A stretch of 64,000 nt of DNA from Alphaproteobacteria bacterium (GTDB lineage: Bacteria > Pseudomonadota > Alphaproteobacteria > JAAXGF01). Position numbers and translations under genes: made by a program. Below, in pieces: positions 5,071-56,898 of this stretch; within the stretch, counting starts at the first letter, position 1, and each line of letters opens with the position of its first letter. The notes under the pieces were generated by a model. That model saw only the letters and a list, made by a program, of their open reading frames with translations. It was not told the origin of the DNA and ran no database searches. The stretch lies in NCBI GenBank assembly GCA_963555825.3, contig CAUVXB020000002.1:2784001-2848000 (forward strand), written 5' to 3'.

Positions 5071-6954
5071 GTGCGCCACGAAGGCGCGAAGGAGGAGCCA
5101 TGAGTTAGGCAAGTCCTAAGCAGCCATGCTGCACAGGAGATGAGGGTATGGCCCCTCGAAGCCGGCTTGCAGGAGCAGGCTTCAAACCGCCTCAAGCTGC
5201 TAGCGAGTCGTAAAGAGCGTGGTGGTGAGCGTTGAGGAAAAGGTTGGACGAGATCCGGTCAGGTGAGGTCCAAGGAGACGAGCGCAAGCGAACCGCTGAT
5301 GACGTGTCGAAAAGTGCAAAGAAGTCGTCAAAACCGGGTGGGTTTCGTTAGCCCGGGAGAAGTCTGGGAGATAGCCTGCTTACTGCCCAGATGGCGTCCG
5401 GCATAAAGGCGGCGTGACCTTGGTTCAGGCTCTTGTGTGGAACGTGGGAACCTGTCGCCCCGATGCAAAGGGAGAAGTCCAAGTGGAAGCCCCACGAGAC
5501 GAGCGTACCGATGCGGGGCACAGGGACGGAGTTGCGCGTAGTAGTGAAGAAGGCTCTGTAATGGAGCTGGAGCGAAGGCGCGACACTGTTCAGCTTTATC
5601 GAGAGGTCAACCGCAATGCGGGAGGAACCTTTGGCTAAAGCAAAGCCGTTCGATATTCCCAAGCCTGCGGTTTGGGAGGCTTATCAACGGGTGAAGGCGA
5701 ACCGGTGCAGCCGGAGTCGATGACCAGTCGATCGAAGCCTTTGATCAGGATGTGAAGAACAACCTTTTCAAGCTATGGAACCGACTGTCATCGGGCAGCT
5801 ACTTTCCTCCGCCGGTAAAGCGGGTAGCGATCAAGAAGCGCAATGGCGGTTCGGGGCCGTTAGGAATCCCAACGGTCTCAGACCGCATTGCGCAAGGCGT
5901 GGTGAAGGCGTACCTGGAACCAGAATTGGAAAGGTATTTCCACTCGGATTCCTATGGGTATCGGCCTGGCAAGTCGGCACTAGAGGCCGTGGGCGTGGCG
6001 CGGCAGCGATGCTGGCGCTATGACTGGGTCCTCGATCTCGACATCCAGGCGTTTTTCGACACCATTCCGCACGATCTGCTGCTCCGGGCGGTGCGAAAGC
6101 ACACCGACTGCAAGTGGGTGCCGTTGTTACATCGAGCGGTGGCTGACGGCCCCCGTGCGGCTGGAGGACGGCACCCTGGAGCCTCGGGAGAAGGGGACCC
6201 CGCAGGGTTCAGTTGTTTCGCCCCTGCTGGCGAACCTCTTCTTGCACTACGCGTTCGATCGGTGGATGGCTCAGCACCATCCTGACATTCCGTTCGAACG
6301 CTTTGCCGACGATGCCGTTTGTCACTGCAGCAGCGAGCTTCAAGCTCGAAGGTTGCAGGCGGATCTCAAGCGACGGTTTGCTGAGTGTGGACTGACGTTA
6401 CACCCAAGCAAGACGCAGATCGTGTATTGCAAGGATAACGTCCGACGAGGGCACTACCCGATCCAGAAGTTCGACTTTCTCGGCTATACGTTCCGGCCGA
6501 GACTGTCGATGAACCGATGGGGCAAGACCTTCGTCAACTTCAGTCCGGGTATCAGCAATCAGGCCGCCAAAGCGATCCGTCAGACCATTCGAGAGTGGCA
6601 GCTCAGCTGTCGTATCGACAAACGTCTCGATGACCTAGCGCGGATGTTCAACCCGATCATTCGGGGTTGGATCACCTACTATGGCCGTTACCACAAATCG
6701 GCACTTTACCCAGCGTTAAGACACCTCGACCTCTGCCTGGCACGCTGGGCGATGTCGAAATATCGACGCTTGAAGCGGCACCGTTGACGCGCACGGCACT
6801 GGCTCCGAGAGATAAGTCTCCGGGATCCGGCGTTATTTGCGCATTGGCGATTGCTGCATCGGGCACCGGCTGGACAGTAGGAGCCGGATGAGTGGAGACG
6901 CTCACGTCCGGATCTGTGAGAGCCTGGGGGTGAAATTCCCCCGGGCCACTCGAC
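5071..6954 (+). mobile_element. group II intron (RmInt1/class D-like)
   Basis: 5' GTGCG at 5071; domain V GAGCCGGATGAGTGGAGACGCTCACGTCCGGATC at 6881-6914; 3' end ..CGAC at 6954; EBS1 TTTCGT (5343-5348) complementary to exon end ACGAAA (5065-5070). Confidence 0.93.
5630..6880 (+). pseudogene. intron-encoded reverse transcriptase/maturase, disrupted
   Basis: PLGIPTVSDRIAQ, SYGYRP, DLDIQAFFD, GTPQG, RFADD, FDFLGY; frameshifts near 5705 and 6120-6130, premature TGA at 6785-6787. Confidence 0.88.
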
Positions 6955-38359: not shown

Positions 38360-41300
38360 GTGGTAGCGACACTCGCCCAGGCGGCGTCTGCCGCGTACTA
38401 CCTGGAGAGCCAGCGCTCGTTCCGCCATCCCAACGAGTATTACACGGCGGGAGAAGAGCCGGACGGAGTGTGGTTCAACCCCAACGGCCTGTTTGGTCTT
38501 GTCGACGGCGGCAAGGTCGACAGCAGCGACTTCCACCGGCTGTATCACGGCTTCGCCCCGAACGGCGGAGGCAAGCTCACGCGGAATGCCGGCAGCGAGC
38601 GCCGTTCGGCCGGTCTCGACATGACCTTCAGCGCGGACAAGAGCGTCTCGGCCTTGTGGGCCATCGCCGATCCCGAGCTACGTTCAAAGATCGAGGACGC
38701 GCATAACGGTGCGGCTCGCGTAGCGCTGGAGGAAACAGTGCTGAGGCATTGCGCCTATACCCGTATCCGTAACCGGGACGGCGAGATCGAAGTGCTGCCG
38801 GCCGATATCGCGGCAGCGATGTTTCAGCACGGCACCAGCCGGGATAACGACCCCCAGCTGCATACCCACTGTGTGATCTTCAATGCCGCCCGGACACACC
38901 GGGACGGCAAGTACCGGGCGCTGCATCAACACCCGGTCTACACCTGGATGAAGGCAGCGGGAGCGGTCTATCGCAATGCGCTGTCCTGGCGCTTGCAGGA
39001 ACGCCTCGGCATCCGCATGGAACAGTATGGCAAGGATGGAGAGTTCACGCGCATCGCAGGCATACCCGAGGACCTGATCGGACACTGGTCGAAGCGCCGG
39101 GCGGCGATTATCGAAGCGGCCCGGGAGATGGGCTTTACGGTCGAGGGCAACGCGCCGCGGGCGGCGGCGGCGAACAAGATCACACGGGCCGGCAAGTCGT
39201 CGGACAATGATCCGGAGATTCGCCACCGGCGCTGGCGAGGCGAAGCGGAGGGGTATGTCGAGCGCGAAGTGCTGATTGCCTCGCTATTGGGCAAGTCGGA
39301 AGAGATTACCCAAGAGCAGATCCGGGCGCTGACGGAAGTCCTGGAAGACCTGCCGTACCGTCTTACACGCGAGGAAGCAGTATTCCGCCTGCCCGACATC
39401 GTCGAGCGGGTGGGCAACGCCACCGCGGGACTTCTGAACCACGACGCGGTGGCGACAAGTATCGAACGCGTGCTTCTAAGCCCGGAGGTGGTGCGCCTGA
39501 CCCGCCCGCCGCGTTCGGCCGAGGGCCGGGCCGATATGGCGCACACCAGGCTCTATTCCACCCGTCACAACCTGCATATGGAGCAGGAAGTCAGGAATAT
39601 GGCGGAAGGCATGGCCGCCGATACGGGCCATTCCTTGTCCCCCCAGGCTATCGGGGCAAAGGTGGCGGGGTTGCTGAAGGCGGGTTATCCGCTGAGCGAG
39701 GAACAGATCGCGGCGATCCGCTCGGTTACCTCATCCGAGGGCCGGGTCGCCATCATCGAAGGGGCGGCAGGCTCGGGCAAGACCACGACATTGCGGCCCA
39801 TCGCCGATCTCTACCGTGAACACGGACAGAGCATCATCGCCACCGCCGTGGCCTGGCGCACGGCGGTGGCGCTTGGCAACGACGTCGACGCGCGGCCGTT
39901 CTGTGTCGACAAGCTGCTGCGCCTTGCCGCGCGAGGCGGCATCGGGATTAACAAGGATACCACCATTATCGTTGACGAGGCGGGGATGCTGTCGACCCGC
40001 CAGGCGCATCATATTCTCCAGCTCTCCGAACGCCACGGAGCGAAGATCGTCTTCGCGGGCGACACGCAACAACAGCAACCCGTTGAGGCGGGACCGGGGC
40101 TGAGGCTGATCCGCGATGCCGTTGGCAGCGTCCGGGTGGACCGCATACGGCGCCAGAAAGCGGACCTGGAGGATATCCTGACCCATGTCCAGGGGGAGAC
40201 ACCCGAGAGGGCACGGCTCCTGGCGAGTTCGATGGCAGAGGAGAGGCGCACCAGAATTCTTACGTACTACGAGAGCATGAAGGGAAAACTTGTTTTTATG
40301 CCGTGGCAGGTCGCTGCTTCCGAGGCGCTGCGCGACGGCGATGCGGCGGCGGCCATTGCAGCGCATCACCTGCGTGGACGGTTCCATATCGGGTACGATG
40401 AAGAAAAGACGCTGACCAGCCTTGTCGACGACTGGGACCGCTACCAGCGGGCTAACCCCGGCAAATCCAGCGTGGTACTGGCGCGTACACGGTCTGAAGT
40501 GAGGGCACTGTCGCACCTGATGCGGGAACGCCGGTTCGCTTCGTTGCCGGATGGGGAACGGGCCGATATGGACCGGGCCCATGCGGACCGGGTGACGGTG
40601 ATCGTCAGCAGGGGCACGGAAGACCAACGGACGACTTCGCCACTCGAGATCGCACGCGGCGACCGGTTGCGCATCGGCGCCACGCACTGGGAGAAGCAGC
40701 TGTTCAACGGCACCGTGGTCACTGTCGAGGACTTCAAGATTGAGAGGGGTGAGGCCGCAACAGAGCCGAGTGTCCTGATATCGGCGCGCACCGAGGATGG
40801 GCGGGCCGTCTCGTTCCATCACGACGAAATTCGCGACTGGTACGGCAATATCCGTCTCGATCACGGCTATGCCCTCACTATTACCTCCGCCCAGGGGCTG
40901 ACCGTGGACCGGACGTTCCTGCTGGCCGACGCGAGGCCCTCGCGCGAGACGATTTATCCCGCCGCAACGCGCCATCGCGAGAGGCTCGACATCTACGTCA
41001 ACCGGGCGCCGCTCACCCTCGATATCGCCGACAGGCGAGTCGACAGGCGAGCCGACAACGACCGGGAAGTTGCGGTGACGGACACCGAGATCCGGGCGTA
41101 TCTGGCCGAACGATGGTCGCGCTCGCAGCCCAAGGAGGCGGCGCTCGACAATATGGCCGACGGCATATGGGAAGACCGCCGGGAGGATGTCCGGGAGGAC
41201 AGAAGCCGCTCCCCTGGCGAAGCCCAGGGCGAGGCGGGTGATATCCGCGCAGCTGCGAACGACAACGCGCTGGCTCGCATCGCGCGGGATGTCCGGCGCA

Positions 41301-43849
41301 CTGCCTTCGGCTGGCGTCACGCCCAGACGGTGAGCACTTTCGTCGATGGCCGAAGAGAGGTTCTCGCGGAATATGACGATCTCCGCGAAAGGACCCGCAT
41401 TGAAGGCGATGCCGTGGCGCTCAGCGGAGCCTACCGCGAGACGCTCACCCGCCATGCCGTGTTGCAGAAACAGGCAGCGGCCTTTCGCGCCCGGCCGGAC
41501 GACTTCGCGTCCCTGCTGGCCGAGCGCGGCGGCATTGCCCGCAAGGACCTCGACGCCTTCGAGGAACTCCACGCTCGCGCGCGACGCCACCAGCGAGCGG
41601 CCACGATGCGGCACGTGCATCGGATAAAGAAGGAAGCGGAACAGGAGGCACAACAACCGAAACCCGAATTGCGGCAAGGGGAGCTGGCGCTGGAGGGCGG
41701 CCGCGCCGAAGCGCCCATGCGCGCCGATACGGTGACGCGGGACACGGCCGGGATGCTGTCTTCGGATCGTGACGCAACACCGGCCCGGCACGTTGACACC
41801 GTCCCGCCGGTCGAAGCCGAAGATTACCCCTGGGCACATGCCGCGGCCGCGCAGGAGGATGTGCCGCCGCCCAGGCTGGACCAGGATCCCCCCAAGCCGG
41901 ACTGGCATGCGCCTTACGAAGCATTGTGGCGGGACTGGAGCGAACTGATCGAACGCGTCCGGCAAGCCGGGGAGCCGTTATTCTACGCCAAGGGCTACAT
42001 GGACATGATCCCACGTATTCAGGCGCTGGCGGAGAACCCGGATATCGCGGCCGAGACACGGGCGCCGATGATTGAGGCATTCGAAAAATACCAACGGGAT
42101 CTCTCGGCGCGCCAATACGTCGAGGACTATCTTGACGCCGCCGAACGGCACATGGACACGCATGCTTCCCTCCAGCGCGTCGCCGATGGCCTCGGCGTTC
42201 GGATCGTTGAGGTATCGGATCACCTGGGCTGGAGGCAGGAAGCGGACCGTCTGACGGAAGCGGCCGAGGCCATCCTCGCGGACGGCGAGACGTATGGCGT
42301 CCATCTCGACAATATGGAAACCGGCAGGGTGCGCGTGGAACGGGAGCTATCACGGCGGAGCCACGTCATCCGGGACGACGGCGAATATGCCTCTCAACGT
42401 AAGACATCGGAACCGCACAGCGAACCTGCGGATACACGGGAGAAAGTCGAACAACCGGAGCCCGCGAAGCCGGCCTGGATGCCAGCTTACGAAGCCTTGC
42501 GGCAGGACTGGAACAGCCTCATCGAAGGCGCCCGGCAAGCCGGTATGCCGTCATTCTACGCCAAGGGCTACATCGACATCATCCCGCGCATCCGGGAATT
42601 GACGGAGAACCCGGATATCCCAGCCAAGTCACGGGCGCCCTTGATCCGGGTCCTTGAGAATCACCAGCGCTATCTCTCGACCCGCAAACATATCCTGGAC
42701 TATCCGGGCGAAGTGGAACGGCACATGGATGCCCGGGCCTCTCTTCAAGACGTTGCGGGTGATCAGGAAATCGAGGTGACCGGGGTTCTGGCCTACCCGG
42801 ACTGGCGGCAGGAGGCCGAGCGCCTGACGGCGGCGTGCGAGGCCATCCTCTCCGGCAAGAGAACCTATGGCGCCCATCTTGACAGGATCGTGGATGCCAA
42901 GATGCACATGATAAGAGCGCTCTCGGAGCTTCGCGAGGCGACCCGGGATGATGACAAGGAACTGGCCGAACGGGCTGCCCGAGAGCTCCGACGCCAGCGA
43001 TTCCTCCACATGGCCGGTCCCCGGTTCGCATCGGATGACGGCGCCGCGCCGGACCCGGCGCGGGCCATGTCTAGCGGCGCCGCGCCTGTGCGGGCGGCGC
43101 TCTCCCGCTTCGGCCGCACCATTGGCCATCTCGTCGGCGGGCAGGACTACCACGATCGGCTGCGGACCGCGACCTTCGCGCGGGAGGCTCTGGAGCGATC
43201 GGAGGAACTGAAGCGGGACTGGAACCGCCAGGTGGATCGCGCCGCGGAGGAGGGCGTCCATGTCATCTACACGGATGGCTACGACCGTCTGCACAAGGAG
43301 CTCGACACCATCGCCGGAGACATGCTTCTGGATCGTGGCGTAAAATCGGAGATAAGCGCCGTGCTCGCTCAGCTCGGCAAGGCAATGTCAAACCGCAACT
43401 ATTTCGACAACTGGCCCAAGCTCATGGCGGGTCAGATGGACCGCCGCGAAGCGCTGGCGGCCAAGGCGGCCGAGCGGGGCGTGGCGGTTCCCGACCATGA
43501 GGACTACGACACATGGCGGAACGTGACCGACTTTGCGGTGGGCCGTTGCGAAGGACTCATGGACGACCCGGTGAATTACGGCATCCACCTAGATTACATC
43601 GCACTCCGAGAAGAGAGCCTCGGCTCAGCGCTCACGCGGGTGCGCGACGTGCTTGAAGACGACGACCGGCACCTCGCGGCAACCCTGGCAGGACAACGCG
43701 CGGGTGAGAGCCTCCAGATGCGCGAGGAGCGCGTCGCCCGCCTCCTCGACGATCCGGAGAAGCTCCGGGAGTTGCGGCAACAGCGCGCCGAGCGCAAGGC
43801 CGAAAGGCAGCAGCAGAGCAAGGGCCGGTATTGGAGCATGCGAATCTAG
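38360..43849 (+). CDS. MOBF (TrwC/TraI-like) relaxase-helicase with long repetitive C-terminus
   Basis: YY..YY, DMTFSADKSVS, HGTSR..DPQLHTH (HUH), GAAGSGKTT, VDEAGM, GYALTITSAQGLT. Confidence 0.93.
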   Translation: MVATLAQAASAAYYLESQRSFRHPNEYYTAGEEPDGVWFNPNGLFGLVDGGKVDSSDFHRLYHGFAPNGGGKLTRNAGSERRSAGLDMTFSADKSVSALWAIADPELRSKIEDAHNGAARVALEETVLRHCAYTRIRNRDGEIEVLPADIAAAMFQHGTSRDNDPQLHTHCVIFNAARTHRDGKYRALHQHPVYTWMKAAGAVYRNALSWRLQERLGIRMEQYGKDGEFTRIAGIPEDLIGHWSKRRAAIIEAAREMGFTVEGNAPRAAAANKITRAGKSSDNDPEIRHRRWRGEAEGYVEREVLIASLLGKSEEITQEQIRALTEVLEDLPYRLTREEAVFRLPDIVERVGNATAGLLNHDAVATSIERVLLSPEVVRLTRPPRSAEGRADMAHTRLYSTRHNLHMEQEVRNMAEGMAADTGHSLSPQAIGAKVAGLLKAGYPLSEEQIAAIRSVTSSEGRVAIIEGAAGSGKTTTLRPIADLYREHGQSIIATAVAWRTAVALGNDVDARPFCVDKLLRLAARGGIGINKDTTIIVDEAGMLSTRQAHHILQLSERHGAKIVFAGDTQQQQPVEAGPGLRLIRDAVGSVRVDRIRRQKADLEDILTHVQGETPERARLLASSMAEERRTRILTYYESMKGKLVFMPWQVAASEALRDGDAAAAIAAHHLRGRFHIGYDEEKTLTSLVDDWDRYQRANPGKSSVVLARTRSEVRALSHLMRERRFASLPDGERADMDRAHADRVTVIVSRGTEDQRTTSPLEIARGDRLRIGATHWEKQLFNGTVVTVEDFKIERGEAATEPSVLISARTEDGRAVSFHHDEIRDWYGNIRLDHGYALTITSAQGLTVDRTFLLADARPSRETIYPAATRHRERLDIYVNRAPLTLDIADRRVDRRADNDREVAVTDTEIRAYLAERWSRSQPKEAALDNMADGIWEDRREDVREDRSRSPGEAQGEAGDIRAAANDNALARIARDVRRTAFGWRHAQTVSTFVDGRREVLAEYDDLRERTRIEGDAVALSGAYRETLTRHAVLQKQAAAFRARPDDFASLLAERGGIARKDLDAFEELHARARRHQRAATMRHVHRIKKEAEQEAQQPKPELRQGELALEGGRAEAPMRADTVTRDTAGMLSSDRDATPARHVDTVPPVEAEDYPWAHAAAAQEDVPPPRLDQDPPKPDWHAPYEALWRDWSELIERVRQAGEPLFYAKGYMDMIPRIQALAENPDIAAETRAPMIEAFEKYQRDLSARQYVEDYLDAAERHMDTHASLQRVADGLGVRIVEVSDHLGWRQEADRLTEAAEAILADGETYGVHLDNMETGRVRVERELSRRSHVIRDDGEYASQRKTSEPHSEPADTREKVEQPEPAKPAWMPAYEALRQDWNSLIEGARQAGMPSFYAKGYIDIIPRIRELTENPDIPAKSRAPLIRVLENHQRYLSTRKHILDYPGEVERHMDARASLQDVAGDQEIEVTGVLAYPDWRQEAERLTAACEAILSGKRTYGAHLDRIVDAKMHMIRALSELREATRDDDKELAERAARELRRQRFLHMAGPRFASDDGAAPDPARAMSSGAAPVRAALSRFGRTIGHLVGGQDYHDRLRTATFAREALERSEELKRDWNRQVDRAAEEGVHVIYTDGYDRLHKELDTIAGDMLLDRGVKSEISAVLAQLGKAMSNRNYFDNWPKLMAGQMDRREALAAKAAERGVAVPDHEDYDTWRNVTDFAVGRCEGLMDDPVNYGIHLDYIALREESLGSALTRVRDVLEDDDRHLAATLAGQRAGESLQMREERVARLLDDPEKLRELRQQRAERKAERQQQSKGRYWSMRI

Positions 43850-44189
43850 TCCGGCCTGGTCGCGCTGGCGACGAGATCGCGATTGCGTCGTTCATCGGAC
43901 GAAGGGAGTCCCCGACACGACAAGACCAAGGTGCGTCGGGTGTGAGAACCAACCGCCGAAGGGCGTCCCCATCCCGCTTCCTGACCGGTCAAGTGCTCGT
44001 GCATTGAAAGCCGTTGTGCAACCGGCATTTAGCCCGAGCGGCGCTTGAGCGGCAGCGCCCGCCGCGCCACCTGTGGAAACAGTCCCCGAACCGCCGCGCG
44101 GCTTCCGAGCGGCACTAAAGATCCTATGGGGCGAAATGGAGACCGGCGCTACGGTGCCGTTCTTGTGAACCCTCATCAGGAGATAGAAA

Positions 44190-45380
44190 ATGCCAGCAAG
44201 AAACAAAATCACCGCCGTACCGACCGACGTAGAACATAGAACGCTGTAAGTCGCGATCGAGATCAGCCGGAAGAGCTGGGTGGTTGGGCTCAAGAGCCCG
44301 GCGGGTGAGCGTATCGGCCTTCACCCGCTTGGCGCCGCAGATGTCGAGGGCCTCAAGACTCTAATTGAGCATCACCGGGCCAAGGCCAAACGGGCACTCG
44401 GCCGTGAGATGCGTGTTCTGTGCTGCTACGAGGCCGGGTACGAGGGGTTCTGGCTGACGCGTTGGCTGGACCAGGCCATGTCTGTCGAGATGATCGTGTT
44501 GGATCCTGCGAGCCTCCTGGTGAACCGGAAGGCAAAGCAGCGGAAGACGGACCGGATCGACGCGAAGAAGATGGTCCGTGCATTGCTGGCACACGACCGG
44601 GGCGACGCTGCCGTGTTGAGCCGGGTGCGGGTGCCAAGTGTGGACGAGGAGGACCGCAAGCGCCTGCTTCGGGAGCGCCAGCGGCTGGTGAAGGAGCGGA
44701 CATCGCTGACGAACTCGATCAAGGCGCTCCTGAAGCTGCATGGCCTCTTCGACTTGGAGCCTCGCTCCAAAGGGTTCGGGGCGAAGTTCGCCGAAGTGAA
44801 GACCGCATATGGATCGTCATTCCCGCCGCGAGCCCGGCAGGAGATCCTGCGGCTTGCGGAGCGCTTGGCACTGGTGGAGCGGCAGATCGCGCAGGTCGAG
44901 GCCGAGCGCAACGCAGTTGCCCGCCAAGGCGCGGAGCTTTCGCCGATGGAGGTGTCCGAGAATAGCGAAGCGCAGGCGGCGGTAAAGATTGCGACGCTGA
45001 CCCGGTTGAAGGGGATCGGCGCGAACGACGCAACCCTGCTGACCCATGAAATCTTCTGCCGCGGGTTCCGCAACCGCCGGGAGCTCGCGAGCTGGGTCGG
45101 CATGACGCCAACCCCCTGGGCGAGCGGTGTCATGGAACGCGATCAGGGGATCGGCCGCGACGGTCCCGCCTGGATCCGGGCCCAGCTCATTCAAATGGCA
45201 TGGCGCTGGTTGCGCCATCAGCCCGAAAGTGCGCTTTGCAAGTGGTTTGAAGAGCGTACTGCAGGAGCCCGGGGACGGATCCGCCGGGTGATGATCGTGG
45301 CGCTCGCCCGCAAACTTCTCATCGCCCTCTGGCGCTTCTGTGAGACCGGTCTCGTGCCAACGGGTGCACGCTGCGCCTGA
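44190..45380 (+). pseudogene. IS110-family recombinase with nonsense codon at 44247-44249
   Basis: AGGAG RBS, ATG 44190 MPARNK..RTL*VAIEISRKSW; CYEAG, KTDRIDA, GIG, PWASG, VALARKL. Confidence 0.9.
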
Positions 45381-45680
45381 TCGATACGGGATCTACTAAT
45401 CCAGTCCGGCTGGATGTGGCCGAGGCTGGGCCGGGTGGATGTGTGACCGTGTGCTTCCTTGGCTGAAAGATGCCGCACTATAGAGGGGTCCCATCCTCCG
45501 GAACGCCACGCCCGCAGCAAGCGGGATCAGGGTTAGGACCCGGCTCCAAGTCGGGTGACAACCGGATACAAGGTGGGTTCGGTGTTGATCGCCGGCCGAT
45601 GTGGAGAAGCGTTCCGCGCCTGGAACATTGAACAAAGAAAGGAGTGATCGTGACAATGCATGAACCGTAGAAAACCACCC
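45381..45680 (+). ncRNA. bridge/seek RNA of IS110 element 1
   Basis: Scaffold shared with element 2; guide GCACTATAG (45475-45483) matches its left flank GCACTAAAG (44112-44120) at 8 of 9. Confidence 0.8.
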
Positions 45681-45930
45681 TTGACTTGGAATAACCGTTC
45701 GGCCAAGCCGTGGCTGCCCGGATGCGCGGAGACAGCGAATGGCCGCTGTGGCAGGAAACCGTGCGGCTCGACACTCGGACCTCACCCGCTGGTCGGACGC
45801 CTCCACAGCGTGACAGAAGGGATACGGCCCGGTAATCCTTCCGACACGCCGTGACCGCCGCTCTGCCTCGAATCAGCGCGGACAGGCGCGCGCCGCATTC
45901 CGGCGCGTTTGTCGGTTGCCCCTCCGCCCC

Positions 45931-46428
45931 TTACTCGATCATGGAGAAAATGATCGCCGGTACCAACGGCTCGCCGGCCGGCTGAATCGCCTCGATGCAC
46001 ATATTGGCGTCGGGGTTGCTGGCCGACATCATCACTTCCAGCACGTCGCCCGCCTCCATGGGAACGATACCCTGCGAAATGATGACGTCCTTCGCCATGC
46101 TGCCTTCGTCCTGGCAGAGCTGCACGTTGGAGTTGGCGACATCCGTGCCGTTGACCCGCAGCCACAGGTCGAAGCAGCCGTAGGGCCCCCCGCCCTCGCG
46201 CCCGACTTGCGGCGCGGCGACGATCAGATAGGGCCCGGCCTCGCCGACGGTCACCTTGTTGTTCGCCAGCGTGATGCCGTTGGCGGCATCGACGATGTCC
46301 ATCTCCACCAGCTTGGGCGCCTTGCCCGGGCACTGGGTAACCGAAGAGGAGGCCTGCAAGTACTGGCCGGCGTGCGCAACGCTCACCGACGCGCCAAGAG
46401 CCGCCAATGTCATGACGAGTTTCTTCAT
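45931..46428 (-). CDS. secreted beta-rich protein, C1q/TNF/BclA-CTD-like
   Basis: Signal peptide MKKL..AHA; pattern VTVGEAGPYLI..Q..WLRVNG..GIVPMEAGDVLEV. Confidence 0.65.
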   Translation of the reverse strand: MKKLVMTLAALGASVSVAHAGQYLQASSSVTQCPGKAPKLVEMDIVDAANGITLANNKVTVGEAGPYLIVAAPQVGREGGGPYGCFDLWLRVNGTDVANSNVQLCQDEGSMAKDVIISQGIVPMEAGDVLEVMMSASNPDANMCIEAIQPAGEPLVPAIIFSMIE

Positions 46429-46510
46429 GAGTTCTCTACCTCGCTGTTTTGCCATTGCCGATACGATTCACCCGGTCCGGCCCGCCCGCGCCTTGGCAGG
46501 GATTGTGCCT

Positions 46511-52648: not shown

Positions 52649-54295
52649 GGCTGGCGGTAATATCCCTTCTCCAGTGTCAATGGCGGAGCAAAAAGGGACC
52701 ACCTCGGCGGTGTAAGAAGGGACCGCTTGGCGGCTGCGGGCTTGTCCCCGTAGTCCACGGGAGGGCCCCGCGCGCGACGCGGCGTGCCCTCAACAGGCTG
52801 ACGCGGCGGCGCGCGCGGGAGGGACCTGTGGGCCCACGGGGTCAAGCGTGGGCTGGGTGGTCGGTTCAGTTAGCAGTCGGGGTTTGACGCCTGCGGCTCT
52901 GGTTGAGCCTGTAGCTGTCACCGTTCATCTCGAGGATGTTGACGTGGTGGGTGAGGCGATCGAGGAGCGCGCCGGTGAGGCGCTCGGAGCCGAACACCTC
53001 GGTCCATTCGTCGAAGGGCAGATTGGTGGTGACCAGGGTCGAGCCCCGCTCGTAGCGTTGGCTGAACACCTCGAACAACAGCTCGGCGCCGGTCTTCGAC
53101 AGCGGCACGAAGCCGAGTTCGTCGACGATCAGAAGCTTGTAGGTGGCGAGCTTCTTCTGGAACCTCAGCAGCTGCTTGTCATCGCGGGCCTCGATGAGTT
53201 CGTGGACCAGCGCGGCGGCGGTGATGAAGCCGACCGAGAGGCCCTTCTGGCAGGCCGCCAGGCCGAGACCGAGGGCGATGTGGGTCTTGCCGGTCCCACT
53301 GTTGCCGAGCGCGATGAGGTTCTCGCGGCGCTCGATGTACTCGCAGCGGGCCAGCTCCAGGACCAGCGCCTTGTTGAGCGAGGGGATGACCTTGAAGTCG
53401 AAGCTGTCGAGGCTCTTGACCACGGGGAAGCGCGCCGCCTTGATGCGCCGCTCGACCATGCGGCGCTCGCGGTCGATCAGCTCGAGCTCGGCGAGTCTCA
53501 ACAGGTAGCGGACGTGATCGACGCCTTCCGAGGCGCACTGCCGGGCGATCTTGTCGTACTCGCGCAGGAAGGTCGGCAGCTTCAGCGTCTTGAGGTGGTG
53601 GGCGAGCAGCACTTGCGGTGTGTCGGTCATGCGCCGAGCCCCGACAGCAGGCTCATGTACGACTTGGCGGACGTCATCGCGACCCGGGCGCGCGGCAGAT
53701 ACGGATAGACGTCGAGGTTGAGCCTGGGCGGCCGCCGCTCGATGCGGCACAGTACCAGGTGCTTCACCGCATCAAAGCCGATTGCGCCGAGCCGCAGGGC
53801 GTCGCCGACCGCACCCTCGACCTCCTCGAGCCGGAAGGTCTCCAGTAGACGGAGCACCTGGACGTACTCGCGCTTGCCTGCCTTGCCCATACGAGCTTCG
53901 AGGAGCCGCCGCAGAGTGATGAAGGCCTCGGGCAGGTCCCAGCCCGCCAATGGCGCGGCCTGGTCGAGGGCGCCGATCTTCTGCTCGATCAAGGGCAGGT
54001 AATGCAGCGGGTCGAAGATCAGGTCCTCGCTGTCGTAGGACCGGCGGTGCCGGGCGATCACCTCGGCCCCGCAGCTGATCACCACCTCATCGACGTAGCC
54101 CCGGATGAGCACCTCACGGTGGCCGTAGGCCACGGGCACGGAATAGTCGTTGCTGCGGTAACGCACCAGCGACAGCGAACTCGCCCGTCCAGGGCGCTTA
54201 TCGCAGGCATCATAGGGAGCAGGCGGCAATGGCAAGAGAACTTGACGATCCCGCTCGAGACGCTCGCCGATGGTCTCCTTATATGAGGCGTTTGC

Positions 54296-54301
54296 TGTCA
54301 A
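54296..54301 (-). promoter_or_regulatory. outward-facing -35 hexamer (circle-junction promoter)
   Basis: TTGACA 15 nt inside the right end; equivalent TTGACT at 45681-45686 in element 1. Confidence 0.65.
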
Positions 54302-54595
54302 GGTGGATTTAATCTACGCCACATGATCGTCTCTTCCATTGGTTATGGCTTTGTATCCAGGGCGGGTCTTGCGATGAGTTCCGTGTTTCGTGCGAGTGAT
54401 CGCATCACCTTATATCCGGCAGCTCCGATCCGGCTTGCCACAATGCTGTATACATGGACCATCACAGGACGGGGATGGGACTAATCTTGTGGACGGCACC
54501 TTCGCCAAGGAGACATGCAGTCACACATCCAACCTGCCAACAAGCGTTCCCATCGGGGAATGAAGCCCGTTAGAACGCTGAGCTGATCCGCAGTC
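54302..54595 (-). ncRNA. bridge/seek RNA of IS110 element 2
   Basis: Four short segments match both halves of the target and both halves of the donor, each pair separated by a hairpin. Confidence 0.88.
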
Positions 54596-55729
54596 CTATT
54601 TGACGACAGCACCCACCGGGATCAGCCCGGTTTCCAGATACCGCCAAAGCGCGATCGCCAGTTTGCGGGCCAGGGCGACGATCATGACGCGCCTGATGCG
54701 CCCCTTCTGACCTTGGGTGCGGTCATGGAACCACTGGGTCAGAGCGCTATCGGGTTGATGGCGGACCCAAAGCCATGCGGCTTCGATCATGGCAACCCGT
54801 GCCAGCCGATTGCCCGCCTTGGAGATGCCTTGGCTGCGGCGCCCGTCGCCGCTGTCATAGGCACTGGGCGTGATCCCGATATAGCTTGCCACCTGTCGGC
54901 GATTGGCGAACTGGCGATAATAGACTTCCCGTGCGAGCGTCGTGGATAAGGCCGGGCCGAGGCCCTTTAAGCGCAGCAGCTGGTGACGCTTGCTTTCCGT
55001 GGCCACACACGGTGTCGGCGCTTGATCACGCTCACGCTCGACCTCGACGATCTGCGCTTGGACCTGGGCCAGTCTCGCGATCTCCCGCGCGATCTCGCGG
55101 CCGAGACGGTCCGGCAGGGGTCGGCCGTCTCCGGTGACCAGCGCCGCCGGTGTCAAGGTCTTGTAGCGCGCCTTGACATTGATGCCGCGAATGCCCTGAC
55201 CGAATAGCAGACCCTTGATCCGGTTGATGTGGGCGGTTCGCTCGCGGACCAATCGGTCACGTTCCCGATGAGAGCGGCGAAGGTCCTCCTCCGCGACGCT
55301 CGGAATCACCACCATGGAGCAGACATGACGCTCGCCGCGGCACCAGGCGATCAGCGTATGAAGAATATTCTCGACATCGATGCGGTCGGTCTTCACCCGC
55401 CGCGCCCGGCGGTTGACCCGCAAGCTGGCCGGCTCCATGACCAGACACTCGATGCCGCGCTGCTCGAGGAACCGCGCCAACCAGAAGCCGTCGTAGCCGG
55501 CCTCGTAGCACAGCGTTATCGTCGGCGTTCGACCCGTCACCTTGACCACCCGGTCCCGCGCCGCGTCCAGCTTGGCCATCAGTCCTTCAGCGTCGCCGCC
55601 CTTGATCGGATGCAAGCTCGGATTGCCCCGCCCCGGAGCCTGGATCGCCAAAAGCCAGCTGTTCTTGCTCAACTCCAGTGCCGCATAAATAGCGTGTTCA
55701 TTGGAGGTCGATACCGGAAACTGTGCCAT
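54596..55729 (-). CDS. IS110-family recombinase, intact
   Basis: ALELSKNSW, CYEAG, KTDRIDV, GLG, AYDSG, ISKAGN, VALARKL; AAGGAG RBS. Confidence 0.95.
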   Translation of the reverse strand: MAQFPVSTSNEHAIYAALELSKNSWLLAIQAPGRGNPSLHPIKGGDAEGLMAKLDAARDRVVKVTGRTPTITLCYEAGYDGFWLARFLEQRGIECLVMEPASLRVNRRARRVKTDRIDVENILHTLIAWCRGERHVCSMVVIPSVAEEDLRRSHRERDRLVRERTAHINRIKGLLFGQGIRGINVKARYKTLTPAALVTGDGRPLPDRLGREIAREIARLAQVQAQIVEVERERDQAPTPCVATESKRHQLLRLKGLGPALSTTLAREVYYRQFANRRQVASYIGITPSAYDSGDGRRSQGISKAGNRLARVAMIEAAWLWVRHQPDSALTQWFHDRTQGQKGRIRRVMIVALARKLAIALWRYLETGLIPVGAVVK

Positions 55730-56898
55730 CGTGTCGCTCCTTCTGATCGAGGTTGAAATAATCGAAGGAGCTTGAGGCTGCGTCCTTCAGCCTCATAGCA
55801 TCTTGTGGCCCCGCAGCCGCGCCGCCTGGCGCCGGCGGCACTGTTCGGCGAGAGCATCGTTGAGGGCCGCGAAGCTCTCGGCACGCGGGACGGGGACCAG
55901 GAAGTTCCGCCGGATGAAGCCGACCAGTCCCTCGACCTTGCCCTTGTCGTTGCCCTTGCCCGGCCGGCCGAACCTGTCCTCGAACAGATAGTGGGACTGA
56001 AGCTCCGTGAAGACGCGCGTTCGCTGCCGCTTCCCATCGCCCAGGATCCGGGCAACCGCCAGCTTGGTGTTGTCGTACAGGATGGATCGGGGGACGCCGC
56101 CGAAGAAGGCAAACGCCGCGTTGTGGCCATCGCAGAATGCTTCGGTCGTCTCCGCCGGATAGGCCGCAACAAAGCAACCATCACTGTGGGGAAGGTCGAA
56201 GGCAAGGAAGTGGATCTTCCGTAACGCGCCGCCGATCACCGCCATCGCTTCGCCGAAGTCCGCCTGGGCGTGACCGGGGGAATGGGAGAGTGGCACGAAC
56301 ACCTCACGCGACCGAAGCCCCTGCTCACGAACGTAGTCCTTCACGATGGTGTAGCCGCCCGTGAAACCGTACTCGTCCCGGAGGCGGTCGAAGATGCGCT
56401 TCGCAGTGTGCCGTTGCTTGCGGTGGCTGGTCCGATCGTCTTCCAAGATCCGATCGATGATTCCCGTGAACGGACCCAGCTTTGGCCGCCTCGGCGGCGC
56501 GCTTCGGCGATACCCTGGCGGCACCGAGAACGACAGCATCTTACGGACCGTCTTGCGGTCTACACCAAACACCCGCGAGGCCTCGCGGGTGCTCATCCCC
56601 TCGACATGACACGCCCGCCGAACCCGTGCGTACAACTCCACCCGATACATCCCCCCCGCCTTCCAGTCAGAGCAACCCTGACAGAAGGCTATACGCGGTC
56701 CCATTTTGGTCCGCCGCAGCCGGATCGACCGGCCGCTTCAGTGGGGGATTATTGCTCTGCCGTTCTCACCTGCCGTCGTAACAAAATCCTGCCTTGGAGC
56801 GGCCCATTGTCACGAATAGCCGATTTCGGCCGTTCGTCTCGACACAAAAAACGCACTAAATCAATGACTTAGATTTTCCATACCAGACCCACACCCCT

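What the first reader, a model, noticed from the sequence alone, without database searches (positions are those of the whole stretch)
44112..45700. Second bridge RNA: same scaffold, different guides, compensatory covariation
Seen: element 1 reads GGATGTGTGAC-cgtgt-GCTTCCTT-GGCtgaaagatGCC-GCACTATAG-aggg-GTCCCATCC and element 2 reads GGATGTGTGAC-tgcat-GTCTCCTT-GGCgaaggtGCC-GTCCACAAG-atta-GTCCCATCC. Each 9-nt guide matches its own left flank at 8 of 9 (GCACTAAAG; GGCCACAAG). In the donor loop GGGAT (45523-45527) pairs with left end ATCCT (one G-T wobble), whereas AGCAT pairs with ATGCT in element 2. ATACAAG (45566-45572) predicts the deleted right tip ..GCCCCATAC-AAG, and GCTTCCTT predicts AAGGAAGC, of which GGAA is seen after the deletion. 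This copy is dead (nonsense codon, lost tip).
Basis: partly seen in the sequence, partly recalled or inferred. Interest (0 to 1): 0.85.

Follow-up and report, generated by a model that had tools for sequence, protein, structure and literature searches.

The report
Dead IS1111-type element with bridge RNA
This is a broken copy of a known kind of jumping gene (IS110/IS1111 family) that still carries its guide ("bridge" or "seek") RNA, whose guide segments correctly predict where it inserted; it is a clean natural example, not a new mechanism.

Summary
It is a new member of a known kind.

**Element 1** (window 44121 to about 45687, + strand) is an IS1111-group insertion sequence.
- Its DEDD transposase gene (44190-45380) carries an in-frame TAA at 44247-44249.
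- Its last roughly 17-19 bp are missing.
- Its 3' non-coding region folds into the same two-loop scaffold as element 2 (54278-55801, - strand, 44% identical transposase).

**Evidence for RNA guiding:**
- Across 27 relatives the scaffold shows 9 base pairs with compensatory changes, and 0 of 500 shuffles reach the observed score.
- The right target guide matches its own right flank at 6 or more of 7 positions in 21 of 24 element-site pairs. Only 14 of 538 mismatched pairs do so.
- The left target guide averages 4.96 of 7 against its own flank, versus 2.11 of 7 for mismatched pairs.
- The right donor guide equals the last 7 nt of the element in 35 of 38 rows.

**Decisive results for element 1:**
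- An empty paralogue of its left flank in the same genome reads GCACTATAG|GAAGCAC. This is exactly what its two target guides predict, and it is the only exact hit to the 14-nt core of that prediction in 6.04 Mb.
- Three metagenome contigs hold intact relatives ending ..CCTCATACAAG|GAAGCA.

**Not supported:**
- The claim that "GGAA" after the break is a remnant of the old flank.

The parts
44112..44120 (+). Left half of the target site (GCACTAAAG), ending in the core AG (44119-44120). It matches the left target guide at 8 of 9.
   Evidence: The empty paralogue reads GCACTATAG (9 of 9 to the guide).
44121..44189 (+). Left end of element 1. The tip is ATCCT, which pairs with the left donor guide GGGAT. 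The subterminal inverted repeat TATGGGGC lies at 44125-44132.
   Evidence: The left end ATCCTATG(A/G)GG is conserved in relatives.
44190..45380 (+). DEDD transposase pseudogene (396 codons plus stop) with an in-frame TAA at 44247-44249.
   Evidence: translation. (PF01548 and PF02371). (NF033542, 'IS110 family RNA-guided transposase', 179.7 bits against a cut-off of 140). (one DNA contig of run X7 reads C at 44249, giving TAC, Tyr).
45431..45501 (+). Target-binding loop of the bridge RNA. Outer stem CCGG/CCGG, then stems GGATG/CATCC and GACC/GGTC. Right target guide GTGCTTC 45451-45457. Hairpin 45461-45474. Left target guide GCACTATAG 45475-45483.
   Evidence: covariation: 5 pairs of this stem change on both sides. 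(guide-to-flank matches).
45502..45600 (+). Donor-binding part of the bridge RNA. Left donor guide GGGAT 45523-45527. Internal hairpin. Right donor guide ATACAAG 45566-45572.
   Evidence: hairpin covariation, e.g. column 106:143 shows GC 12, UA 10, CG 4. (the donor guides track the element ends).
45601..45687 (+). Remaining right-end sequence. It holds a 4-codon mini-ORF (45656-45670) and CTTGAC (45680-45685). Similarity to relatives stops at about 45687, and the last 17-19 bp, including the right inverted repeat and the tip ..CATACAAG, are gone.
54278..55801 (-). Element 2, the comparator. It is an intact 1524-bp relative (transposase 54596-55729, 377 aa) inserted in an IS21-type istA gene, and has the same scaffold. 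Guides: ATGTCTC (54516-54510), GTCCACAAG (54494-54486), AGCAT (54447-54443), ATATAAG (54415-54409).

Best explanation
Element 1 is a decayed IS1111-group member of the IS110 family. It once moved as a circle using a DEDD recombinase guided by a bridge RNA (seekRNA) encoded in its own 3' non-coding region.

**How the RNA reads its sites:**
- The RNA has two internal loops.
- In the target loop, the 5' segment (GTGCTTC) is complementary to the top strand of the right half of the target. The 3' segment (GCACTATAG) has the sequence of the left half plus the core AG, so it pairs with the bottom strand.
- In the donor loop, GGGAT pairs with the left tip ATCCT. ATACAAG has the sequence of the right tip plus the same core AG.
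- Recombination at the shared AG inserted the element into GCACTATAG|GAAGCAC, downstream of a large ORF on a repeated segment.

**What happened afterwards:**
- The right tip and the right flank were lost by a deletion or rearrangement.
- In this genome a Tyr codon then mutated to TAA.
- The copy can no longer move.

**Shown here:**
- the anatomy of the element
- covariation in the RNA scaffold
- covariation of guides with flanks and of guides with element ends
- the empty site
- intact relatives in the homologous site

**Inferred from published work on the family:**
- that the RNA is made
- that it binds the recombinase
- that it directs strand exchange
For: 1. **Protein family.** PF01548 and PF02371 match. 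Both element 1 and element 2 proteins pass NF033542, 'IS110 family RNA-guided transposase'.
2. **Layout.** The long non-coding region lies 3' of the gene, and there are 8-bp subterminal inverted repeats 4 nt from each tip of element 2 (TATGAGGC/GCCTCATA). This is the IS1111 layout described in PMC11187229 (section 6) and PMC11208160 (passages on IS1111).
3. **Scaffold.** On 27 RNAs, the 26 predicted pairs are 98.3% paired. Nine pairs change on both sides. 0 of 500 shuffles reach the observed covariation score. Slid controls are 29-59% paired.
4. **Right target guide against its own right flank.** 21 of 24 distinct element-site pairs match at 6 or more of 7, against 14 of 538 mismatched pairs. 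The best of three offsets was used for both sets.
5. **Left target guide against its own left flank.** The mean is 4.96 of 7 for 26 pairs, against 2.11 of 7 for 640 mismatched pairs.
6. **Right donor guide.** It equals the last 7 nt of the right end in 35 of 38 rows, across six different 7-mers. All 4 of 4 rows with ATACAAG end CATACAAG.
7. **Left tip against left donor guide** (read by eye). ATGCT goes with AGCAT or TGCAT (6 elements). ATCCT goes with GGGAT or AGGAT. ATCCC goes with GGGAT.
8. **Element 2's own insertions in this genome.**
   - The 5 distinct complete sites all have GAGAC on the right, and 3 of the 5 have GAGACAT, which is 7 of 7 to the guide.
   - The 6 distinct left flanks match GTCCACAAG at 6 to 9 of 9.
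   - The IS21 site occurs 69 times empty as GGCCACAAGGAGAC and 9 times occupied.
9. **Element 1's empty site.** A paralogue 91.5% identical over 425 nt ends its similarity exactly at 44120 and continues GAAGCACGAGG. The empty site therefore reads GCACTATAG|GAAGCAC, 16 of 16 to the two guides. The 14-mer searched is the only exact hit in the genome. My arithmetic gives about 0.05 expected by chance.
10. **Metagenome contigs.** L109, L112 and L113 carry 77-81% identical relatives with the guides GCTTC, GAACTATAG and ATACAAG. Their intact ends read ..GCCTCATACAAG|GAAGCA. These elements sit in sequence homologous to element 1's left flank (L112) or to the empty paralogue's right flank (L109, L113).
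11. **A second empty site.** Loose ends of DNA run X7 continue from 44117 with TAGGAAGCAC...
Against: - **No direct proof of the RNA.**
  - The RNA-library contigs that cover 45296-46480 (X16) and 45365-46104 (X17) have depth near 200, against 4 or less over the transposase gene.
  - Contigs carry no strand. A strong promoter-like site on the minus strand (46575-46547) could drive the neighbouring minus-strand ORF through this region as antisense.
- **Single-sequence folds do not single out the structure.** The z-score is -2.07 for element 1 and +0.68 for element 2.
- **No Rfam family matches**.
- **Some guide matches are weak.**
  - One subgroup (L061, L063, L065, L067) matches its left flank at only 3 of 7 outside the core.
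  - L045's right guide matches at only 4 of 7.
  - The register of the right guide relative to the hairpin varies by 1-3 nt.
- **Element 1's own flank** has one mismatch to its guide (A at 44118 against T).
- **Relatedness.** Related sequences are not independent, so the permutation figures overstate significance.
Confidence: 0.93

Rival explanations
1. The conserved 3' region is a DNA-level feature (recombinase-binding end sequence), and the recombinase protein chooses the target. On this view the similarity between internal segments and flanks is a by-product, not RNA guiding.
For: No strand-resolved RNA evidence was obtained. The right end also holds DNA signals, namely the subterminal repeat and TTGAC.
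Against: Paired columns change on both sides in 9 pairs while pairing is kept, which DNA binding sites do not require. The segments lie about 1.3 kb from the left flank and about 230 nt from the right tip. Very close relatives that differ in a guide differ in the flank in the same way: L094 has CCCCTTCC with flank GGAAGGGG, and L095 has CCCCCTCC with flank GGAGGGG. Published experiments on IS1111 and IS110 members show that the RNA is required and programmable (PMC11187229, abstract and section 9; PMC11208160, passages).
Confidence: 0.03
2. The matches in element 1 are chance, picked post hoc from a GC-rich sequence.
For: Each single match is short (5-9 nt). GGATGTGTGAC with 1 mismatch allowed is not rare: 3 hits against 1.0 expected, and 8 of 100 shuffles reach 3.
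Against: The two guides together predict a 16-mer. It is found exactly at the point where the paralogue's similarity to the left flank ends, and the 14-mer searched is unique in 6.04 Mb. The same rule holds in 21 of 24 pairs (right guide) and 35 of 38 rows (donor guide) of independent relatives.
Confidence: 0.01
3. The RNA of dead element 1 is not a fossil. It is kept as an orphan guide that other resident recombinases, such as element 2's, use in trans, or it acts as a regulatory RNA.
For: Element 1 and element 2 have identical target-loop stems (GGATGTGTGAC/GTCCCATCC), although their proteins are only 44% identical. The RNA region shows no obvious decay, and RNA-library contigs cover it at high depth. 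The truncated copy is identical across DNA runs of several studies.
Against: The donor guide of element 1 (GGGAT) does not fit element 2's left tip (ATGCT). The perfect element 1 target in the genome is empty. The strand of the RNA contigs is unknown. No element 2 copy sits in an element 1-type site.
Confidence: 0.03

Closest known systems
IS1111-group insertion sequences with a 3' seekRNA (ISEc11, ISPa11, ISKpn4, ISPst6; Siddiquee et al. 2024, PMC11187229; abstract and sections 6, 9 and 13 read)
   Same: DEDD transposase. Long non-coding region downstream of the gene. Subterminal inverted repeats. An RNA in which the segment complementary to the top strand of the target lies 5' of the segment complementary to the bottom strand. 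A G--P----SG motif, read by eye (GMTPTPWASG and GITPSAYDSG). Each element or clade has its own target.
   Different: The transposases here are longer (377 and 396 aa, against 330-350 aa stated for the IS1111 family in section 6). The targets are new. Element 1 is a dead copy. No experiment was done here.
IS621 bridge RNA (IS110 group; Durrant et al. 2024, PMC11208160, passages on IS1111 read; PDB 8wt6)
   Same: A two-loop RNA with a target-binding and a donor-binding loop. Each loop reads both strands around a shared core dinucleotide. That paper predicted bridge RNAs in the right end of 93.0% of IS1111 elements.
   Different: In IS621 the RNA is in the left end. Its core is CT (recalled, not from a call), whereas here it is AG. 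The proteins are only distantly similar (E 6.8e-08 over residues 218-369). The order of the guide segments is reversed between the two groups (PMC11187229, abstract).
IS4321/IS5075, which insert into the terminal repeats of Tn21-family transposons (title seen in the reference list of PMC11208160; paper not read)
   Same: An IS1111-group element whose preferred target lies inside another mobile element. Element 2 sits in 9 of 78 copies of an IS21-type istA gene.
   Different: The host element and the target sequence differ. The target here is inside a coding region.
ISPpu9 with the Ssr9 small RNA of Pseudomonas putida (PMC12288879; search listing and start of abstract only)
   Same: An IS110-family element with a small RNA gene downstream of the transposase. 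Extra RNA copies occur without a transposase, like the 5'-truncated remnants seen here.
   Different: Not compared at sequence level.

Membership tests
IS110 family, IS1111 group | DEDD (RuvC-like) N-terminal domain plus the IS116/IS110/IS902 C-terminal domain | tested here: met
   PF01548 E 1.1e-09 and PF02371 E 1.2e-12 for element 1. NF033542 scores 179.7 bits (element 1) and 204.4 bits (element 2), with a cut-off of 140.
IS110 family, IS1111 group | Longer non-coding region downstream of the transposase gene | tested here: met
   Element 2 has 317 nt after the stop (54595-54278) against 72 nt before the start (55801-55730). Element 1 has 69 nt before the start and at least 307 nt retained after the stop.
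IS110 family, IS1111 group | Subterminal inverted repeats (7-17 bp) set in from the tips | tested here: met
   Element 2 has TATGAGGC 4 nt from the left tip and GCCTCATA 4 nt from the right tip (read; too short to appear in the top 25). In element 1 only the left copy, TATGGGGC, survives.
IS110 family, IS1111 group | Insertion without target duplication at a specific sequence that shares a short core with the element's joined ends | tested here: met
   The empty IS21 site reads GGCCACAAGGAGAC (69 copies). The occupied site reads GGCCACAAG[1524 bp ending ..ATATAAG]GAGAC. AG is invariant in the left target guide and in the right donor guide.
Bridge RNA / seekRNA | Structured RNA with conserved stems supported by covariation | tested here: met
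   26 pairs, 98.3% paired, 9 pairs with changes on both sides, 0 of 500 shuffles.
Bridge RNA / seekRNA | Loop segments complementary to both strands of the target, varying with the target | tested here: met
Bridge RNA / seekRNA | Loop segments matching the element's own ends (donor) | tested here: met
   (35 of 38 rows). (left tip against left donor guide, read by eye).
Bridge RNA / seekRNA | The RNA is transcribed, binds the recombinase and is required for transposition | not testable with these tools
   Only RNA-library contigs without strand information, which is inconclusive. Binding and requirement need experiments.
Rfam family | Match to a curated covariance model | tested here: not met
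   Searches gave no relevant hit. No match only means that nothing among the 4227 models reached threshold.

The most novel reading that the evidence does not exclude
The bridge RNA of dead element 1 survives as a transcribed orphan guide. Because its target-loop stem is identical to that of the active element 2, element 2's recombinase could load it in trans, as a split target loop. That would lend element 2 a second target specificity or titrate its recombinase.
Probability: 0.04. Interest if true: 0.6.

Novelty: new member of a known kind. Interest (0 to 1): 0.3.

Why it matters
The finding adds nothing new in mechanism. Its value is as a well-controlled natural case.
- Two related guide RNAs in one window read different targets.
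- One is validated by an empty paralogous site in the same genome and by intact relatives in metagenomes.
- The other is validated by 5-6 independent insertions, including repeated hits in another insertion sequence.

The roughly 30 distinct guide, target and donor sets collected here give natural programming rules for an AG-core IS1111 clade:
- a right target guide of about 7 nt
- a left target guide of 6-7 nt plus AG
- a left donor guide of 5 nt
- a right donor guide of 5 nt plus AG

These rules could help people who mine bridge recombinases for genome engineering.

Tried and rejected
**Searches that found nothing or were uninformative**
- Megablast of element 1 against plasmids found nothing.
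- blastn of its two flanks against plasmids found nothing.
- A DNA search of 13 genomes of the same family found no close copy.
- An exact search for element 1's target loop in metagenome contigs gave 0 hits.
- Rfam gave only weak, irrelevant matches, both at gathering scores and at E up to 10.
- Single-sequence folds pair the guide segments spuriously and were not used.
- The top 25 of the inverted-repeat scan are longer chance pairs and do not list the 8-bp subterminal repeat.

**Parsing and alignment problems**
- My first hairpin regex anchored on an upstream stem-loop, so searches were superseded.
- The loosened regex mis-anchored the target loop in many rows. Only its right-donor-guide against right-end comparison is used. 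Its 'LDG' column is discarded.
- The MAFFT alignment A2 was replaced by A3. In A3 the outer CCGG stem is shifted by one column in part of the rows, so only 2 of its 4 pairs were counted.

**Ideas rejected**
- The CTT after the right target guide is not a complement of a 3-nt core AAG. In relatives these three bases are CAG, TTG, CTG, CCG, GCG or ACG.
- GGAA at 45688-45691 is not shown to be a flank remnant.
- The A at 44118 did not come from a 3-nt crossover. In other elements the base before AG follows the target, not the donor.

**RNA-library contigs**
- They cover the non-coding region at high depth. Strand and ends cannot be read from contigs, so this is no evidence of expression of the bridge RNA.
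- Parts of the transposase gene without RNA cover are likewise no finding.

**Rows left out**
- Of the 52 loci, 37 with a near full-length match were parsed. L033, L054, L064, L066 and L071-L083 were left out because the match was partial or the 3' region was replaced.
- L090 comes from unpublished genome G251.
- L114 shows no bridge RNA upstream and is taken as a chance or remnant hit. L107 is too short to read.

**Tools and sources not available**
- Supplementary tables of PMC11208160 and PMC11187229, which may list these or similar elements, were not available.
Full report
**What is there**

The finding spans an insertion sequence on the + strand.
- Its left tip is at 44121 (ATCCTATGGGG..), directly after GCACTAAAG (44112-44120).
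- An ORF runs from ATG 44190 to the stop at 45380. It has one internal stop, TAA at 44247-44249, codon 20.
- The protein carries PF01548 and PF02371. It passes the NCBIfam equivalog NF033542, 'IS110 family RNA-guided transposase'.
- Relatives read ..STLYVA(I/V)E(I/V)S.. where element 1 reads ..RTL*VAIEIS.., so a Tyr codon became TAA.
- One DNA contig of public run X7 that spans the same left junction reads C at 44249 (TAC). Run X9 reads TAA.
- The same truncated right junction is present in both runs. The loss of the tip therefore seems older than the nonsense change.

**The comparator**

A second element lies on the minus strand at 54278-55801. It is 1524 bp, with a transposase of 377 aa that is 44% identical to element 1's.
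- The genome (6.04 Mb, 2 contigs) holds 11 complete copies, 3 left-end-only copies and fragments.
- Element 1 is single-copy in the genome.

**The quoted strings**

**Is the scaffold an RNA structure?**

I collected relatives of the element 1 protein from genome contigs: 52 loci at 86-30% identity. I aligned 27 distinct 3' regions (alignment A3).
- RNAalifold predicts a long interrupted stem that closes the first loop, a small invariant hairpin inside that loop, and a second hairpin region.
- Of the 26 pairs, 98.3% of cells are standard pairs and 9 pairs change on both sides. Examples are column 9:67 (GC 17, AU 10), column 10:66 (UA 15, CG 9, UG 3), column 16:62 (AU 17, GC 9) and column 106:143 (GC 12, UA 10, CG 4).
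- 0 of 500 shuffles reach the observed covariation. Sliding the 3' partners by 1-3 columns drops pairing to 29-59%.
- The proposed guide segments are unpaired in the consensus.
- A covariance model built from A3 finds 16 places in the genome: element 1, 11 copies of element 2, one truncated copy of element 2, and three remnants.
- Single-sequence folds are not informative, and Rfam has no match.

**Do the guides track the flanks?**

*Left target guide.*
- This is the 7 nt before the invariant AG.
- For 26 element-site pairs distinct in guide or flank, it matches its own left flank at a mean of 4.96 of 7.
- For 640 pairs of a guide with another element's flank, the mean is 2.11 of 7.

*Right target guide.*
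- This is 7 nt, taking the best of three offsets before the hairpin.
- It matches the reverse complement of its own right flank at 6 or more of 7 in 21 of 24 pairs (mean 6.2).
- Only 14 of 538 mismatched pairs reach that, treated in the same way.

*Weak cases.*
- L061, L063, L065 and L067 match at 3 of 7 on the left.
- L045 matches at 4 of 7 on the right.

*A pair of close relatives.*
- L094 has CCCCTTCC in the RNA and GGAAGGGG in its flank.
- L095 has CCCCCTCC in the RNA and GGAGGGG in its flank.

**Element 2 as an internal control**

Its copies sit in 5 distinct complete sites plus one site with the left end only.
- Right flanks: GAGAC in 5 of 5, and GAGACAT in 3 of 5. The guide is ATGTCTC.
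- Left flanks match GTCCACAAG at 8, 6, 7, 9, 6 and 7 of 9.
- The commonest site lies inside an IS21-type istA gene. It occurs 69 times empty (GGCCACAAGGAGAC) and 9 times occupied. This also shows there is no target duplication.

**Donor loop**

*Right donor guide.*
- Its 7-mer equals the last 7 nt of the element in 35 of 38 distinct rows.
- Six different 7-mers occur: ATAAAAG 20, ATAAGAG 5, ATACAAG 4, ATATAAG 3, ATGTGAG 2 and ATATGAG 1.
- The 3 exceptions each differ by one base.

*Left side, read by eye.*
- Tip ATGCT goes with AGCAT (element 2, L085, L086) or TGCAT (L094, L095, L101).
- Tip ATCCT goes with GGGAT (the element 1 clade), with AGGAT (L087), and once with GGGTT (L100, one mismatch).
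- Tip ATCCC goes with GGGAT (L088, L092).

**The decisive tests for element 1**

1. *Empty paralogue in the same genome.*
   - The genome holds a paralogue of the left flank on contig C2, near 646,960 on the minus strand.
   - It is 91.5% identical over 425 nt to window 43697-44120, and the similarity stops exactly at 44120.
   - The paralogue continues GAAGCACGAGGTAACAG...
   - The uninterrupted site reads GCACTATAG|GAAGCAC. This is identical to the left guide (9 of 9) followed by the reverse complement of the right guide GTGCTTC (7 of 7).
   - The 14-mer I searched is the only exact hit in the genome. My arithmetic gives about 0.05 expected by chance.
2. *Intact relatives in metagenome contigs.*
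   - I scanned metagenome contigs for the predicted right junction, TTGAC, 7-9 nt, C(C/T)CATACAAG, GAAGC. This gave 9 loci.
   - L109, L112 and L113 are relatives 77-81% identical to element 1. They carry the guides GCTTC, GAACTATAG, GGGAT and ATACAAG, and an intact end ..TTGACATGCTGTGCCTCATACAAG|GAAGCA...
   - The right flank of L109 and L113 is homologous to the empty paralogue's right flank.
   - The left flank of L112 (..GGCGGCACTGTAG) is homologous to element 1's left flank.
   - Four further hits are other IS1111-type right ends whose RNA carries GCTTC, CGCGCTTC or ACTTC at the right-guide position: L106, L108, L110 and L111.
   - L107 is too short to read, and L114 shows no RNA upstream.
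3. *A second empty site.*
   - Loose ends in DNA run X7 continue from 44117 with TAGGAAGCAC...

**What was lost**

- Relatives have 19 nt after CTTGAC, ending in the right inverted repeat and the tip.
- Element 1 has CTTGACTT (45680-45687) and then unrelated sequence.
- The paralogue's right flank is nowhere in the window. The break therefore removed the tip and the adjoining flank.
- The GGAA at 45688-45691 cannot be called a remnant.

**Expression**

- Element 1 is held by runs from 8 studies, several labelled sponge metagenome.
- In two RNA libraries of one study, contigs cover 45296-46480 and 45365-46104 at depth near 200. The transposase gene has 4 or less.
- Contigs have no strand. A strong promoter-like site on the minus strand (46575-46547, 10 of 12 matches) precedes the minus-strand ORF 46455-45931.
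- This coverage is therefore not evidence for the bridge RNA.

**Comparison with what is known**

- Siddiquee et al. (PMC11187229; abstract and sections 6, 9 and 13 read) show the following for IS1111-family elements. The long non-coding region lies downstream of the gene. It gives a seekRNA that co-purifies with the transposase and is needed for transposition. The top-strand match lies 5' of the bottom-strand match. The anatomy found here is the same.
- Durrant et al. (PMC11208160; passages on IS1111 read) predicted bridge RNAs in the right end of 93.0% of IS1111 elements.
- The solved IS621 and ISCro4 recombinases are only distant relatives.
- Differences here are longer transposases, an AG core and new targets.

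**Verdict**

The finding is a new member of a known kind and of modest interest.

Noticed in passing
window 54273-54277 and 55802-55810; genome-wide: Element 2's commonest target lies inside the istA gene of an IS21-type element. That site occurs 78 times in the genome, 69 empty and 9 occupied. The genome is very rich in insertion sequences, and one insertion sequence repeatedly disrupts another.
   Followed up: partly
window 45656-45670 (element 1); right ends of most relatives: A purine-rich Shine-Dalgarno-like stretch is followed by ATG and a very short ORF of 2-8 codons. It lies some 10-45 nt upstream of the TTGAC near the right tip in many relatives (read by eye). Its role is unknown.
   Followed up: no
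window 45680-45685; element 2 at 54302-54297: A conserved (C)TTGAC lies 19 nt from the right tip. In a circle junction it would sit 17 nt from GAT(C/G)CT, formed by the last base of the right end and the first five of the left end. This is a possible junction promoter for the transposase. It was read by eye; I did not build or scan the junction.
   Followed up: no
genome C1:1793700-1794227 and C2:716681-717000: Two further 5'-truncated remnants of related elements keep the bridge-RNA region and an intact right end (..CCCTCATAAGAG| and ..CGCCTCATAAAAG|GCCCGCGG). They lack a transposase.
   Followed up: partly
window 44249: One DNA contig of run X7 reads C (TAC, Tyr) where the window has A (TAA stop). 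Run X9 reads A. The nonsense change is therefore polymorphic among sampled populations.
   Followed up: partly
window 45296-46480: RNA-library contigs of runs X16 and X17 have depth near 200 across the 3' end of the transposase gene, the bridge-RNA region and the neighbouring minus-strand ORF (45931-46455, 174 aa, with a hydrophobic N-terminus). Strand is unknown. A promoter-like site lies at 46575-46547 on the minus strand.
   Followed up: partly
window 45692-45725: Short contigs in the RNA runs match only this 34-nt stretch and continue differently on both sides. The continuation AGGTAGCCGTTCGTCCAAGCCG resembles the stretch itself, which suggests a small repeated motif just beyond the truncation point. 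The surrounding 312 nt (45689-46000) gave only a self-hit when searched against the genome.
   Followed up: no
window 5142-5264 and 6879-6954: Rfam hits to group II intron domains: RF01999 at 104.9 bits and RF00029 at 53.3 bits.
   Followed up: no
window 38360-43849 and genome C2 near 646,950-647,375: Element 1's target lies about 270 nt downstream of a 1829-aa ORF. By eye this ORF looks like a conjugative relaxase-helicase (recalled, not tested). The segment has a paralogue elsewhere on the same contig, and the homologous target is used by relatives in metagenome contigs.
   Followed up: partly
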